Positions 3,123-44,585 of a stretch of DNA of 64,000 nt are shown piece after piece. The notes beneath the pieces are model-generated. The model made no database searches. It had not been told where the DNA came from and worked only from the letters and a program-made list of their open reading frames with translations. The position numbers and the translations under genes are program-made. Source of the stretch: Felis catus (lineage: Eukaryota); assembly GCF_018350175.1 (NCBI RefSeq), contig NC_058375.1, positions 194,742,001 through 194,806,000 on the forward strand. The letters run 5' to 3'. Positions within the stretch are counted from its first letter, which is position 1. Each line of letters starts with the position of its first letter.

Positions 3123-4105
3123 CTGAGCCTGTAGATTGAAAAAGAAGACCAACTGCATAACTTTAGGGAAGGAGAGTCTACCCTACCCAAATTATGGAAT
3201 ATGATGTCCGGATAACTCCACCTCTTTCACATCCTACCCACATTTGAGTACTTTCAACGTGTGACCCCAGCGTTTACATAACAGTCTGATCCACAATCAG
3301 AAAAGCCCTTCATAATTTACAGAGCAATGCTTATCCATTATCCATTATTTCCTTTGTTCTGCACAGTAAATTGATGAAATAGAAAGGAAAACTATTAGAA
3401 ACCTTAGGGCTCTTTGGAAATAATCCACAGAAGTCCATTTTTTCTAGAAGCTATGTGCTCCACTAACAACAGGAATTAAATGGGCAAAAGAGAGGATGAT
3501 GACAGTTATTATTCACCTCAGGAGGGCTTCCTATTTACCTTTGAAGGAAGAAACAAGCTGAATGTTGACAAATTTTGTATTCTCACTTTGCTTAGGCATG
3601 AGTATTACAATATAGTGAACATATTATTTTAGAAAATCCCTTAAAAATGCCAGAAGTTGCCATGTGATCTCAAAGCTCCAGACTTTGATCAGTTCCAGAA
3701 ATTTAATAAGAATCCTTGCCTGGTGGTACTATCAGAAGCCTGCTGAAGAGGGTAGCTTCAGGGAAAATCTTTTTGTCTTTATCACTGATAGTCCCCTTTG
3801 TCTCTCTCTAGGTGGTTCTGATAGTCTGCCAAGGATACAGAAAGCATGTTTTCTAATCAAGAGGTCTACATTCATATCCTTTAGCACTAGAGGGTGATCA
3901 GAATGCACAGACATTTTCCTTTCTCTTAAATCATATTCTGAATTTTACAAAGATTAACTTGCTTGGTGAGCTCTTGACAATTCTGTCTTTCAAGTTGCAC
4001 ATGCTCACCATAAAACATATAAAATTTGGTTTAATCACAAAATGGAATCTCAGTACCAAAAGGGCTTAGTGAGTAGGTGAACAGATGTCTTTTTTTCTTG
4101 TTTGT

Positions 4106-16927: not shown

Positions 16928-17142
16928 CGATGAACAAATGCAAGGGGGCAACCTGGGGCGGAAAGATTTCTGGCGCAAGATGTTCAAATCCCAGAGTGCA
17001 GCTAGTGACACCAGCAGCCAATCTGAGCAGGATACTTCAGAATGCACCACTGCCCATTCCGGGACCACCTCTGACCGTCGCGCCCGCTCAAGGTCCCGCA
17101 GAATTTCCCTCCGGAAGAAGCTTAAACTCCCCATAGGTAAAA
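16928..17142 (+). CDS. UNC80: UNC80 internal exon: (H)DEQMQGGNLGRKDFWRKMFKSQSAASDTSSQSEQDTSECTTAHSGTTSDRRARSRSRRISLRKKLKLPI(G or GKR); alternative end at 17136
   Basis: Acceptor ttgctttcag|. Two in-frame donors: G|gtaaaa (exon end 17136) and A|gtatgt (exon end 17142). Phase 2 to 1; matches ORF 16938..17204. Confidence 0.95.
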
Positions 17143-17271
17143 GTATGTCTGTATTTATTTATGGATTCTCTTACTCCCTGCCATGTCCTCAAATCAACTC
17201 ATAATCAAAACAAAGCAATGCATGGTAGGGCAGAGAAAGGGAAAGGCTTCAAGTCACAAGGTTGAGGCTGG

Positions 17272-18934: not shown

Positions 18935-19385
18935 ATTTTTTTAATTTTTATTATTAAATTCCAGTGTAATTAACAGACAGTGCTATATTACTTTCAAGTG
19001 TACAATATAGTGATTCAACAATTCTATATATTACTCAGCGCTCATCATGATAAGTGTACTCTTAATCCCCATCACCTATTTCACCCACCCCACCACCCAC
19101 CACCCCTCTGGTAACCATCAGTTCTCTGTATCTAAGAGTCTGGTTTTTTGTCTCTTTTTTTCTTGTTCTTTGTTTTGATTTATAAATTCCACATATGAGT
19201 GAAATCATTTGAAATTTGTCTTTCTCTGACTTATGTCACTTAGCATTACACCCTCTAGATCCATCTGTGTTGTTGCAAATGGATTTCTACTCTCTACTTT
19301 TATTCAACATAGTACTAGAAATCCTAGCCACAGCAATCAGACAAGAAAAGTCAATGAAAGGCATCTAAATTAGTATTTCTCAGAT
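18935..19385 (-). mobile_element. 5'-truncated and 5'-inverted L1 insertion
   Basis: The minus-strand L1 3' UTR and ORF2 end (18935-19282) abut a plus-strand ORF2 piece (LLFNIVLEILATAIRQEK, ~19285-19375). Candidate TSD agttttaacttt at 18923-18934 and 19386-19397. Confidence 0.8.
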
Positions 19386-26462: not shown

Positions 26463-26635
26463 GTTGCCACAGCTTTGATGACNNNNNNNNNNNNNNNNNN
26501 NNNNNNNNNNNNNNNNNNNNNNNNNNNNNNNNNNNNNNNNNNNNNNNNNNNNNNNNNNNNNNNNNNNNNNNNNNNNNNNNNNNNNNNNNNNNNNNNNNNN
26601 NNNNNNNNNNNNNNCTGGCAGCTGCTTTGGATCTT
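26463..26635 (+). CDS. UNC80: UNC80 internal exon, partly masked: (G)CHSFDD-[44 masked codons]-LAAALDL
   Basis: Acceptor cccctacag| and donor CTT|gtaagt; 173 nt, phase 1 to 0. The 132-N run preserves the frame and equals the recalled 44-residue spacing between SFDD and LAAALDL. Confidence 0.93.
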
Positions 26636-26744
26636 GTAAGTTGTTAGAAGAATTTGCCCACTCTATCTCCCATTACAATTAATAATGCTAATGGAGGAAA
26701 GCCTGAGTCCCTAATCTTAACCCTATCTGTGGAGTTATTTTTTT

Positions 26745-40694: not shown

Positions 40695-41070
40695 TTTTAG
40701 GTTAATCTAATCTTCCCAGTTAAAATTGGTTCCTGCCTTGTCTAGGACTATAAGGTTATGCAACAATTGAATTGAAGCTACTCTTTGGCATTACAAAACA
40801 TAAAAAGGTAATCTAGCAGACATGCTAATAAGACAGAAATTTAAATACGCCTACTTTTCTTTCAGGACCACCAGTAAAAATTCTCTGTGGTATACCAATG
40901 GTATCAAATTTTGTTTAGATGTTCACTTTTGACTATGCTCTGATACTCTGTGGTTTTCATCCATGCAGCGTTCTTCTGATTCATTTTTCTCCATTTGTGC
41001 TGTTGTTCTGTGTGATGTGAGTCCATCCCTATCCATTCTGTCATGTCTCCATTTTTTGCTGCTTCTTCAG

Positions 41071-41090
41071 ATTGCGCTGAACTGTAAGAG
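41071..41090 (+). other. UNC80: Candidate cryptic/poison microexon (20 nt) of UNC80
   Basis: ttttttgctgcttcttcag|ATTGCGCTGAACTGTAAGAG|gtaagc has a strong acceptor, a strong donor and an upstream YCAY cluster. Confidence 0.45.
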
Positions 41091-43497
41091 GTAAGCTCCA
41101 TCAAAAAGAGGAAAAATTGACTCTTCTCTATGTCCAGGAAGAATTCTTTTTGTCCAAGGTATTCTAGAACTCTGCCCCTAAAATCAATACTTTCTAAACT
41201 ATACTCTGAAAGGAATTTATAAGGAAAATAATTCCCTATAGCCACACCCCATCTAAAATGCCTTGAAAGCTCTTTCATACACATTGTGAAGTCAGTACTT
41301 AATGCTAAGTATCTTCTACCAGGATGCACAGTAGAGTCCTTAGCTTTGTAGAGTCCTCAACAACTTCCTCAATTGTCTGTATAGTAAGATATATACTACA
41401 ATACCCCCAGAAAGTGGTACTATTCAGTGTCATCTTGACTATAGTATTTCAAGTCTGCTTTCATCCACCAGGTTGATGAGGATTATAATAAAAAGGCAAT
41501 GTTTGAGTTACTCTATGTCCTCATCCCTTAATGCAGATAGTGACATTTCCAAAAGTTACCTACTTTTACAGTTAACATGGATCAAATTCATCAGATAATA
41601 ATCAACCCTCCTTTTCATGTTGTGCTGTATAGTTAATGGGAATTATTTTCATAATGATCTCGATTCCATTTCCAAACTTTAGATTAGGATTTCCTAGGGC
41701 TGATAACTGGTAATATCTGAGTTTTATTATAACTAGTTTTTATGAACAGAAAATCAAAATTGCTTTTCATTCCAAATGCCCTGAGCTTTCTAAGCTTTCT
41801 TCTGAAGGAGGCAAGCCAATGTACATAGGAAAAACCACAAAGCACAATTTGGATTTTTCATTCATCTATTATTAATCTTTTCAGTGTCATCTAATAGATA
41901 AGGGCAATAAAAAGATCCTCTGCCCCATACATTTGAGTTAGGCTAATTTTCGACCTTGGTAATTCTGTAGGAGCCAGGGTTTACAACATAATGCCACCCT
42001 AACAGTGGTTCTGTCTTCCTGTCATTAAGCAATGAATCCCATTGCTTTATATTGGGAATGTGTCAAAATTTGATGGGTTGACAACAAATTTACATGACTC
42101 ACCTTGCCTTCCAGACTGCCATCCATTTTTACAAACAGATGTTCAAGCCTTTTCCAGACACAGATTAGCATATCTGAGATATGTAGTAAAATAAATATTT
42201 AATACAAGAAAAGAGCATAGACGTTTAATCTGTATGTTATGGTACCCCAATACTGATAGGTTTAACGCAGAAAATCATTTGACCCTCTCAATCTCGTCTT
42301 TCTATTCCTGTGACCTACTACCAAATCTTGGCACCAATGCAGTGAATGATAGATTTTCATCATTAGTGTCCACTTTTTTTTTTAATGATAGGTTCTCACC
42401 ATTAATGTTCATCTGGTACTCTACCTTTCCGCATAGGTTAACTTTGCATGTAGTATCGATGCATCATATGCTTTGTGATATTAAGTTCCTACATAAATAT
42501 ATTTCTTATCAGAACTCTTGATGGCTTCCTTTAAGTTGTGGACAATGAGAAAATGCTTAAAGGCTAACTTACTAGAATCATTCAGTGTGTTTGAGATACT
42601 GTGGTATTCAAAGAATGAAGTAACCAACTCTGCCTAAGAAGAGAAACATTAAGGAAGGCTTCTTAGAGGAAGTAACTAAACTTATTAGTAAAAGTGGGAA
42701 TTTACAAGATGGGAAAAAGGCTTAACAGCTCCACAAATCATGGAAACAACATGTGAAAAGGTGTAAGATGTCATATTTAAGGGACTGTAACCTGTTTGTT
42801 ATAGTTAGACCATAGAGTACTTGATACAGAGATAGAAAGGGAGATGAACCAGATAACAAAGGTTGAGTATCTTTATTCATGTTATGATTGAGATGGATGG
42901 AGCCTATAATAAATTTTAAATAGGAAAATGATATGATCATATATTTGTGTTTTAGAGAGTAACGTTACATGACTTTAATGCCCCATTTAAAAAAAATGAC
43001 TTTCTATACACATTCTAGAAATCATCTTTGTCAAGATTTATCTGTGTATATATTAAGACAATGCAGGTACCAAAGAGAAACTAGCAACAATTTGTACATT
43101 AGAAAGGCCTGGTATTGAATCCTGTGTTCACCTCTTCCCAGCTGCATGATCATAGAAAAATTATGCCTCATTTTTAAAAACATTGAAATGAGGATATTAT
43201 TTCTAGTCTAGAGGTTTGTTATTATTCAGAATGACGACTCATAAAAGCTAATCAACATGTAATTGATACTCTCTATATATTAGCCCCTATTTTAATATTG
43301 TGGATTAATGAATCATTAAGAATATTATTGTTTGAAATGTTGAAAAGCATTGGTTACTAATCAGCTTATGGCTATTAGGTAACTCTGAGTTGATGGCCAG
43401 TATTGTGATGTATTTTTTTAAACTGGCTCAAGTTAAATATACACATTGTTGATGTATGTACTTTTTGTTACCTGTTGACCTTCTATGGGAATGTTCC

Positions 43498-43546: not shown

Positions 43547-44372
43547 AGCTTGTGAAGATTTCAGTAGGTAGATGATCCTTACTAGTTTCTTGGTATTAAC
43601 TGAAAGTTGTTTCTTCTTTTCTTTTTTTTTAAGCACATCTTGACATGACAAGATGGAACCATATTTCTCTTTTTTTGAATAAATGCTCTGTTTTTCATTT
43701 ATCAATTGAATAATTTCCTCTTTGTCAAACATTTTCAATTGAAACCATGCCCATTTAAGCAGAATTTTATCTGTTATTCATCACAAAGTAAAGGGGACAA
43801 AAGACTAACTCAACAAAATCTAATAAGCACTTCCTTTTCTTATTAGCCAAAATGCGCAGGAACAGTTGTACTTCTTTGGAGTGTGTGGATGGTCATAGAT
43901 AACATTATCGTTGGAACAAGATCACTATTGACTCCCTTGATTAACATAAGACTAGTTCTAGAAATTGAATATTTGTTTGGCTTGGGTTAAAATTTTAGGT
44001 TTAACAAAAGCTTCATATTAAAAAACTCCTTTGAACATTATCTCACTCTCCTATGCAAATCCCAGCTGCCTCTTAAATATGCAATGATAAAGTCATAAAA
44101 TTACTTGAGATTCTTCAAAAGGGGAAAGCTAAACACAGAAATCTACTTAAAATGTCTAATTCTTCAGTATGCAAATTTGCCTTCAAAGATTCATTTTCCA
44201 GAATTCCCACTACTGTTAACCATGCTACTACCAGTCTGCACTCTGGGAAATATGACTAACCTAAATCAAGGCATGGGGACTAAAATAAACTAAGAGTACT
44301 TAGTAATTCCCTTTAAGGTCGGCCTATTGCTCATTAATCCAACATCATTCTTTCCTCCACAACCGTCCTCAG

Positions 44373-44585
44373 GAAGCTCCTGTGGTAGCCAGAGCAGCTC
44401 TGTTTCTGGAATGTGCCCGTTTTGTTCACCGCTGCAACCGCGGCAACTGGCCAGAGTGGATGAAAGGGCATCACGTGAATATCACGAAGAAAGGCCTTTC
44501 CAGGGGACGCTCTCCCATTGTGGGCAACAAACGGAACCAGAAGCTACAGTGGAATGCTGCCAAGCTCTTCTACCAATGGGGAGAC
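44373..44585 (+). CDS. UNC80: UNC80 internal exon: EAPVVARAALFLECARFVHRCNRGNWPEWMKGHHVNITKKGLSRGRSPIVGNKRNQKLQWNAAKLFYQWGD
   Basis: Acceptor ccgtcctcag| and donor GAC|gtgagc; 213 nt, phase 0 to 0. Confidence 0.97.

What the first reader, a model, noticed from the sequence alone, without database searches (positions are those of the whole stretch)
40955..41101. Candidate NOVA-regulated poison microexon deep in the 17.7-kb UNC80 intron
Seen: a 20-nt segment (41071-41090) is bounded by a strong acceptor (ttttttgctgcttcttcag, no other AG for ~47 nt upstream, two UGC motifs in the pyrimidine tract) and a near-consensus donor (GAG|gtaagc). Eight YCAY tetramers fall in the ~96 nt from 40957 to 41052 (starts 40957, 40961, 40981, 40991, 41023, 41033, 41041, 41049), versus about 1.5 expected at 1/64 per position, with a ninth at 41098. 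Inclusion between LAAALDL and EAPVV reads IALNCKR-KLLW-stop, with TAG at 44386-44388, ~200 nt before the next junction. An internal donor (ACT|gtaaga, 13-nt exon) creates TGA at the junction. Established: upstream YCAY clusters are the NOVA repression signature, NOVA controls cryptic NMD exons in neurons, and UGC next to the 3' splice site is the SRRM3/4 microexon enhancer. Inference: a splicing/NMD switch that tunes UNC80 dose and hence NALCN leak current.
Basis: partly seen in the sequence, partly recalled or inferred. Interest (0 to 1): 0.7.

Follow-up and report, generated by a model that had tools for sequence, protein, structure and literature searches.

The report
Conserved poison microexon in UNC80
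A 20-base piece deep in an intron of UNC80, a gene nerve cells need for their sodium leak current, has a counterpart that is spliced into the message in another mammal, where it shifts the reading frame to an early stop, so it is likely an off-switch for the gene that the nerve splicing factor NOVA would normally keep silent.

Summary
The sequence description is accurate. 41071-41090 is the best-scoring AG..GT pair of 3-51 nt in 464 kb on both strands, and 8 YCAT lie upstream. New evidence: one assembled multi-exon product from a mammal outside Carnivora (P0111) carries the matching insert at this junction (IALSHKR against IALNCKR here). It then follows the shifted frame of the next exon to a stop. 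So the exon is real, still 20 nt, and shared across mammalian orders, while its peptide and first stop are not kept, as expected of a poison exon. This rests on one record. Inclusion in this species was not seen (a weak test). NMD follows from the stop position (197 nt here, 122 nt in P0111, before the next junction) but was not measured. NOVA repression and SRRM3/4 activation rest on motifs only. The 13-nt internal donor is weak and absent in P0111. Tuning of the NALCN current is speculative; heterozygous knockout mice look normal. The exon was not found in the catalogues I could search; VastDB and GENCODE were not checked. Verdict: new member of a known kind.

The parts
26615..26635 (+). Visible 3' end of the upstream UNC80 coding exon (LAAALDL); phase-0 donor at 26636
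   Evidence: homologs read directly from this motif into the EAPVV exon
40957..41052 (+). Cluster of 8 YCAT (NOVA-type) motifs; the only TNA branch-point-like A at a usual distance (A at -28) lies inside one of them
   Evidence: NOVA binding inferred, not tested
41022..41070 (+). 48-nt AG-free zone, pyrimidine tract with TGC at -14 and -11, acceptor AG at 41069-41070
41071..41090 (+). 20-nt frameshifting cassette microexon (reads IALNCKR)
   Evidence: best AG..GT pair in 464 kb; matching insert IALSHKR at the same junction in spliced product P0111
41084..41089 (+). Internal donor (13-nt form); weak and not conserved
   Evidence: score 5.2; incompatible with the His codon of P0111
41091..41101 (+). 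Near-consensus donor GTAAGC and a ninth YCAT at 41098
   Evidence: score 10.2
44373..44585 (+). Downstream UNC80 coding exon (EAPVV..., 213 nt); after inclusion it is read in the +1 frame, with TAG at 44386-44388 and a second stop TGA at 44461-44463, the position at which P0111 ends
40866..41016 (+). Second exon-shaped piece (151 nt, in-frame TAA at codon 4) whose donor at 41017 lies 54 nt before the microexon acceptor; possible mutually exclusive poison exon or decoy donor
   Evidence: scores 9.5 and 7.6; 27 such pieces in 928 kb of strand sequence; no RNA evidence

Best explanation
This is a 20-nt cassette exon of UNC80 whose counterpart is spliced in in another mammalian order and shifts the frame to an early stop, so it is likely a poison exon that would send the message to nonsense-mediated decay and that NOVA likely keeps skipped in most central neurons. 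Step 1 (shown): strong acceptor and donor bound the 20 nt. Step 2 (shown in one record from another species, inferred here): the exon is joined to both neighbours. Step 3 (shown by translation): the frame shifts and stops at about residue 1,220-1,250 of 3,270-3,510, 197 nt (here) or 122 nt (P0111) before the next junction. Step 4 (inferred from the 50-55 nt rule, recalled): the message is degraded. Step 5 (inferred from motifs): NOVA bound to the YCAT cluster, which covers the likely branch point, blocks the acceptor, while UGC next to the acceptor lets SRRM3/4 promote inclusion; UNC80 output would then drop where NOVA is low and SRRM3/4 high. My odds: real and shared across orders 0.9; NMD when included 0.85; NOVA-repressed 0.6; measurable effect on leak current 0.25.
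For: P0111 (454 aa, one Logan contig of 2,843 nt) spans many UNC80 exons without intron sequence. It has a 7-codon insert matching 5 of 7 residues at this exact junction, and 28 of 36 residues of its tail match the predicted shifted frame. Chance of 5 of 7 is 6e-6 to 6e-5. It differs from felid, ferret and pangolin UNC80 (412/418, 410/418, 302/306 identical), so it likely lies outside Carnivora. Length and frameshift are kept while the peptide (at least 3 changes in 21 nt) and first stop differ. The splice sites are the best pair in 464 kb and 2 of 512 strong acceptors have 8 YCAT. NOVA mostly represses cryptic NMD exons from upstream clusters (PMC3552424). UGC is enriched just upstream of SRRM4-regulated microexons (PMC4387716). 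A truncation at mouse R1266 fails to bind UNC79 (PMC7335163), so the shorter product here would likely lack that function too.
Against: Only 1 of 133 fetched proteins with the upstream motif has the insert, and a search with its tail among proteins of 30-248 aa found no candidate. No inclusion junction was seen in this species: two raw-read runs had 0 reads on the exon boundary, and in X4 the intronic contig ends where the skip junction alone predicts (44402, not 44400). The YCAY excess is not significant against dinucleotide shuffles (p = 0.19). Conservation of the YCAT cluster and UGC in other species was not observable. The exon is absent from the Felker, Margasyuk, Zhuravskaya, Weyn-Vanhentenryck and LeafCutter2 tables searched, which suggests low inclusion in human and mouse brain. 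65 of 72 SRRM4-activated microexons keep the frame. At Scn9a E17a an upstream NOVA cluster goes with inclusion. Heterozygous knockouts look normal.
Confidence: 0.55

Rival explanations
1. The exon is a real, conserved poison microexon, but it is controlled otherwise: NOVA promotes inclusion (as at Scn9a E17a), or MBNL, CELF/TDP-43 or PTBP act through the YGCY, UG-rich and CU-rich motifs in the same 130 nt.
For: YGCY at -73, -14, -11 and inside the exon; UG-rich run at -62 to -55; several TCTT/TTCT. Scn9a precedent. The YCAY excess is not significant against dinucleotide shuffles.
Against: All 8 motifs are YCAT, 8 of 13 A's in the stretch sit in them, and one covers the likely branch A; upstream clusters mostly repress in Eom 2013.
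Confidence: 0.22
2. It is an old cryptic exon with low-level leaky inclusion and no regulatory role; the YCAT cluster, if functional, only silences it, and P0111 is a rare product from one unusual sample.
For: One record only; not in five catalogues; exon sequence changed at 3 or more of 21 nt; not dominant in X4.
Against: An unselected ancestral site would be expected to decay, yet it is used in one lineage and is still the best-scoring pair in 464 kb in the other, at the same 20-nt length.
Confidence: 0.17
3. The microexon is used together with a partner event that restores the frame and so adds a short peptide to UNC80.
For: Most neural microexons keep the frame.
Against: P0111 shows inclusion alone with frameshift. 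No other 3-51 nt pair in the intron scores within 2 bits. None of the 23 directly spliced homologs has an in-frame insert here. The 151-nt neighbour carries a stop at codon 4.
Confidence: 0.04
4. It is a chance pseudo-exon never spliced in any species, and P0111 is an assembly artefact.
For: No inclusion seen in this species.
Against: An artefact would not give 5 of 7 matching residues, the exact length and the predicted frame.
Confidence: 0.02

Closest known systems
NOVA-regulated cryptic NMD exons: Dlg3 E15/E16, Scn9a E17a (Eom et al. 2013, PMC3552424; passages seen)
   Same: Intronic NOVA-type cluster upstream of an alternative exon whose inclusion creates a premature stop in a neuronal excitability gene.
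   Different: Here the exon is a 20-nt microexon with a UGC signature, and NOVA binding, direction of regulation and NMD were not measured.
SRRM4/nSR100-activated neural microexons, 3-27 nt (Quesnel-Vallieres et al. 2015, PMC4387716; passages seen)
   Same: Length 20 nt, UGC within 15 nt of the acceptor, long AG-free zone, strong donor.
   Different: Frameshifting (65 of 72 in that set keep the frame), peptide not conserved, and a repressor-type cluster lies upstream.
Conserved poison exons in catalogues (Felker 2023 PMC9882217; Margasyuk 2024 PMC11632617; LeafCutter2 PMC12026817; supplements searched)
   Same: Exon kept across mammalian orders without amino-acid constraint, creating a premature stop.
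   Different: No UNC80 entry in the first two; LeafCutter2 lists only two productive UNC80 cassette exons (about 204 and 57 nt).

Membership tests
Poison (AS-NMD) cassette exon | Spliced in between two coding exons | tested here: met
   One spliced product from another mammal, P0111; not seen in this species (weak test)
Poison (AS-NMD) cassette exon | Inclusion creates a stop more than 50-55 nt before a downstream junction | tested here: met
   197 nt here; 122 nt at the position where P0111 ends, assuming equal exon length; many downstream exons
Poison (AS-NMD) cassette exon | Included form accumulates when NMD is blocked | not testable with these tools
   No NMD-inhibited data set could be selected
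Poison (AS-NMD) cassette exon | Conserved as an exon without amino-acid constraint | tested here: inconclusive
   Two species only: same length and frameshift, 2 of 7 residues and the first stop differ; no genome alignment available
NOVA-repressed cryptic exon | YCAY cluster just upstream of the exon | tested here: met
   8 YCAT in 96 nt; 2 of 512 strong acceptors match this; not significant against dinucleotide shuffles
NOVA-repressed cryptic exon | NOVA CLIP binding at the cluster | not testable with these tools
   No CLIP data reachable
NOVA-repressed cryptic exon | Inclusion rises on NOVA loss | not testable with these tools
   The exon is not among the rows of the Nova-scored table searched
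SRRM3/4-activated neural microexon | 3-27 nt with UGC close to the 3' splice site | tested here: met
   20 nt; TGC at -14 and -11
SRRM3/4-activated neural microexon | Neural-specific inclusion lost without SRRM3/4 | not testable with these tools
   Tissue of P0111 is not given; no knockout data reached

The most novel reading that the evidence does not exclude
UNC80 level, and with it the NALCN leak current, is set per cell type by a NOVA-versus-SRRM3/4 contest over a compact two-exon poison module: the 20-nt microexon and a 151-nt stop-bearing exon whose donor lies only 54 nt upstream, so that the two exclude each other, with the YCAT cluster lying across both. This would give a splicing dial for resting potential, a hiding place for deep-intronic UNC80 disease alleles, and an antisense target to raise or lower NALCN activity.
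Probability: 0.15. Interest if true: 0.7.

Novelty: new member of a known kind. Interest (0 to 1): 0.46.

Why it matters
No splicing-coupled control of UNC80 turned up in ten paper searches. UNC80 is required for the neuronal sodium leak current and its knockout is neonatal lethal in mice (PMC7335163). A conserved poison exon gives a testable route by which NOVA or SRRM3/4 could set UNC80 level. It marks an intronic region to screen in patients with a single coding UNC80 allele, and it is a possible antisense target. Frameshifting microexons are a minority class, so a clean example with both motif types is useful. The mechanism class itself is established, and halving UNC80 has no gross effect in mice, which limits the likely physiological weight.

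Tried and rejected
No related genomes are held for this window. An exact pattern scan of metagenome contigs found 0 matches. A protein-anchored scan gave 16 loci: one close match with only 411 nt upstream, 14 distant matches (41-49% identity) and one 18-residue fragment, none useful for the intron. Reads were laid only on the downstream exon boundary, not on the microexon itself: X24 and X21 gave 0 reads (no test), X2 and X4 one intronic contig each; 4 of 24 listed runs were laid. The tail search among 30-248 aa proteins, 10 further clusters and the best 150 of 490 representative hits gave no second inclusion product. The MicroExonator table search is uninformative: rows list transcripts, my motif spanned the codons that differ in P0111, the coordinate terms had no positive control, and one file was too large to read. 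Yan 2015 and Irimia 2014 were not held under the ids I tried. Folding 41010-41130 shows no unusual structure (z = 0.12). Recursive splicing was rejected because the acceptor is not followed by GT. No RBFOX GCATG lies within 1 kb. The 13-nt form was rejected as the conserved form. My first translation used a wrong exon start and was redone. Earlier scan notes had nothing on this locus.

Full report
Observation. The window holds part of a feline-like UNC80 gene: the exon at 44373-44585 is 100% identical to named pangolin and camel UNC80 over 71 aa, and flanking exons map by tblastn; 'feline' rests on a recalled SINE type and closeness to a named felid protein. Inclusion shifts the frame and reaches TAG at 44386-44388, 197 nt before the next junction; the 13-nt form stops at the junction.

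Is it more than chance? With an approximate, recalled splice-site matrix the pair scores 9.4 and 10.2, above the flanking constitutive sites (6.7 and 7.2). It is the only 3-51 nt pair reaching both scores in 464 kb on both strands; 6 pairs lie within 1 bit and 36 within 2 bits, and none of the others in those sets has more than 6 YCAY upstream. Two of 512 strong acceptors have 8 YCAT within 120 nt, and five clusters of 8 or more YCAT per 96 nt occur in 928 kb of strand sequence. Composition-matched windows average about 2.0 YCAY, with 2 of 418 at 8 or more. The cluster beats mononucleotide shuffles (mean 1.6, 0 of 20,000) but not dinucleotide shuffles (mean 6.7, p = 0.19). Thresholds were set after seeing the site.

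Is it spliced? A search with the peptide upstream of the junction returned 98 proteins. One, P0111 (454 aa, one Logan contig of 2,843 nt), runs through many UNC80 exons without intron sequence, then reads IALSHKR where the window's piece reads IALNCKR, then follows the +1 frame of the next exon to a stop. 28 of 36 tail residues match the frame predicted from the window, which fixes the insert at 20 nt; 5 of 7 matches by chance has probability 6e-6 to 6e-5. An unspliced read-through would begin with Val, as 107 of the 133 proteins with the upstream motif do; 23 show direct splicing, one ends at the motif and one is a bird gene model with an unrelated tail. Most of the directly spliced proteins are gene models biased to open frames, so 1 in 24 is not an inclusion rate. 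P0111 differs from felid (412/418), ferret (410/418) and pangolin (302/306) UNC80; four residues shared by felid and ferret differ in it, two of these also in pangolin. It is therefore likely a mammal outside Carnivora; its species and tissue are not given. No second such product was found.

What is kept and what is not. Length and frameshift are kept. The peptide is not (at least 3 changes in 21 nt, against at least 6 in 90 nt of the next exon), and the first stop is not: P0111 has Trp where the window has TAG and ends at the position of TGA 44461-44463, 122 nt before the junction. Both stops meet the 50-55 nt rule (recalled). This is the pattern of a poison exon and not of a coding microexon. 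The internal donor needs a GT that no His codon can supply, so the 13-nt form is not shared. In eight fish-type proteins that read through the intron it is only 75-105 nt, leaving no room for the module, which is therefore likely younger than the split from teleosts.

In this species. Reads were laid on 44200-44430 only, for 4 of 24 listed runs. Two raw-read runs had 0 of 12.9 million reads each on the stretch, which is no test. In X4 the intronic contig ends at 44402, 30 nt into the exon, where a skip junction would branch for 31-letter words; an inclusion path, sharing AG with the intron end, would branch at 44400. I infer that inclusion is not dominant in that run; contigs drop rare forms. 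X2 ends at 44394, which is uninformative. Inclusion in this species is therefore unshown.

Mechanism. Shown: splice signals, inclusion in one record, frameshift and stop at about residue 1,220-1,250 of 3,270-3,510. Inferred: decay by NMD; repression by NOVA, because the cluster lies directly upstream and the only TNA branch-like A at a usual distance (-28) sits inside a YCAT; activation by SRRM3/4 through the two UGC. Eom 2013 (PMC3552424, passages) reports that NOVA mostly inhibits cryptic NMD exons, with upstream clusters at Dlg3, but at Scn9a E17a an upstream cluster goes with inclusion that is lost in the knockout, so the direction is not fixed by position. Quesnel-Vallieres 2015 (PMC4387716, passages) reports UGC enrichment just upstream of SRRM4-regulated microexons, 65 of 72 of which keep the frame. 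PMC7335163 (passages) shows that UNC80 potentiates the leak current, that a truncation at R1266 does not bind UNC79, and that heterozygous knockouts have no gross abnormality; the last weakens the dose-tuning claim.

A neighbour. A second exon-shaped piece, 40866-41016 (151 nt; acceptor 9.5, donor 7.6; stop at codon 4), ends 54 nt before the microexon acceptor, shorter than a usual minimal intron (recalled), so the two would exclude each other or the donor acts as a decoy. 27 such pieces occur in 928 kb of strand sequence, about 0.3% per 100 nt, with post hoc thresholds. Four YCAT lie inside it and four in the gap. There is no RNA evidence for it.

What is known. Searches for UNC80 with 'poison exon' or 'microexon' gave 0 papers; the other UNC80 searches gave listings with no title on this exon (listings only), and two general searches served to find catalogues. 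Supplements searched by gene name: Eom 2013, 2 files, none; Felker 2023, 5 files with a 1,938-row table, none; Margasyuk 2024, 394 exons, none, but that list excludes GENCODE/RefSeq-annotated exons; Zhuravskaya 2024, 12 of 13 files, none; Weyn-Vanhentenryck 2018, 12 of 15 files, one Unc80 row for a 57-nt exon near the 3' end; LeafCutter2, two productive UNC80 exons of about 204 and 57 nt; MicroExonator, none but uninformative. VastDB, GENCODE, Yan 2015, Irimia 2014 and the unsearched files could list it, so 'unannotated' is not established.

Verdict. A real frameshifting microexon shared across mammalian orders on the evidence of one spliced record, likely a poison exon, with NOVA repression the best but untested guess at its control. 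New member of a known kind; interest 0.46.

Noticed in passing
window 40866-41016: 151-nt exon-shaped piece with a stop at codon 4; its donor at 41017 is 54 nt before the microexon acceptor, so it would be mutually exclusive with the microexon or act as a decoy donor.
   Followed up: partly
window about 17133-17150: Likely tandem donor at the end of the exon near 17138: homologs read IG-NW in 12 of 14 cases and carry two extra residues (KR or KW) in 2 of 14.
   Followed up: partly
window 19042-19137: Densest YCAY window of the + strand (11), but CCAC-rich and repeat-like, not YCAT.
   Followed up: no
P0008-P0026 (eight fish-type proteins): The same intron is only 75-105 nt and stop-free in these read-through proteins, against 17.7 kb here.
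   Followed up: partly
G000 C17, about 46-58 kb upstream of the window (L016-L017): Four further high-scoring 7-50 nt AG..GT pairs on the + strand near the 5' end of UNC80, without YCAY clusters; not examined.
   Followed up: no
window 44271: G>A difference in the X4 contig, likely an allele.
   Followed up: no
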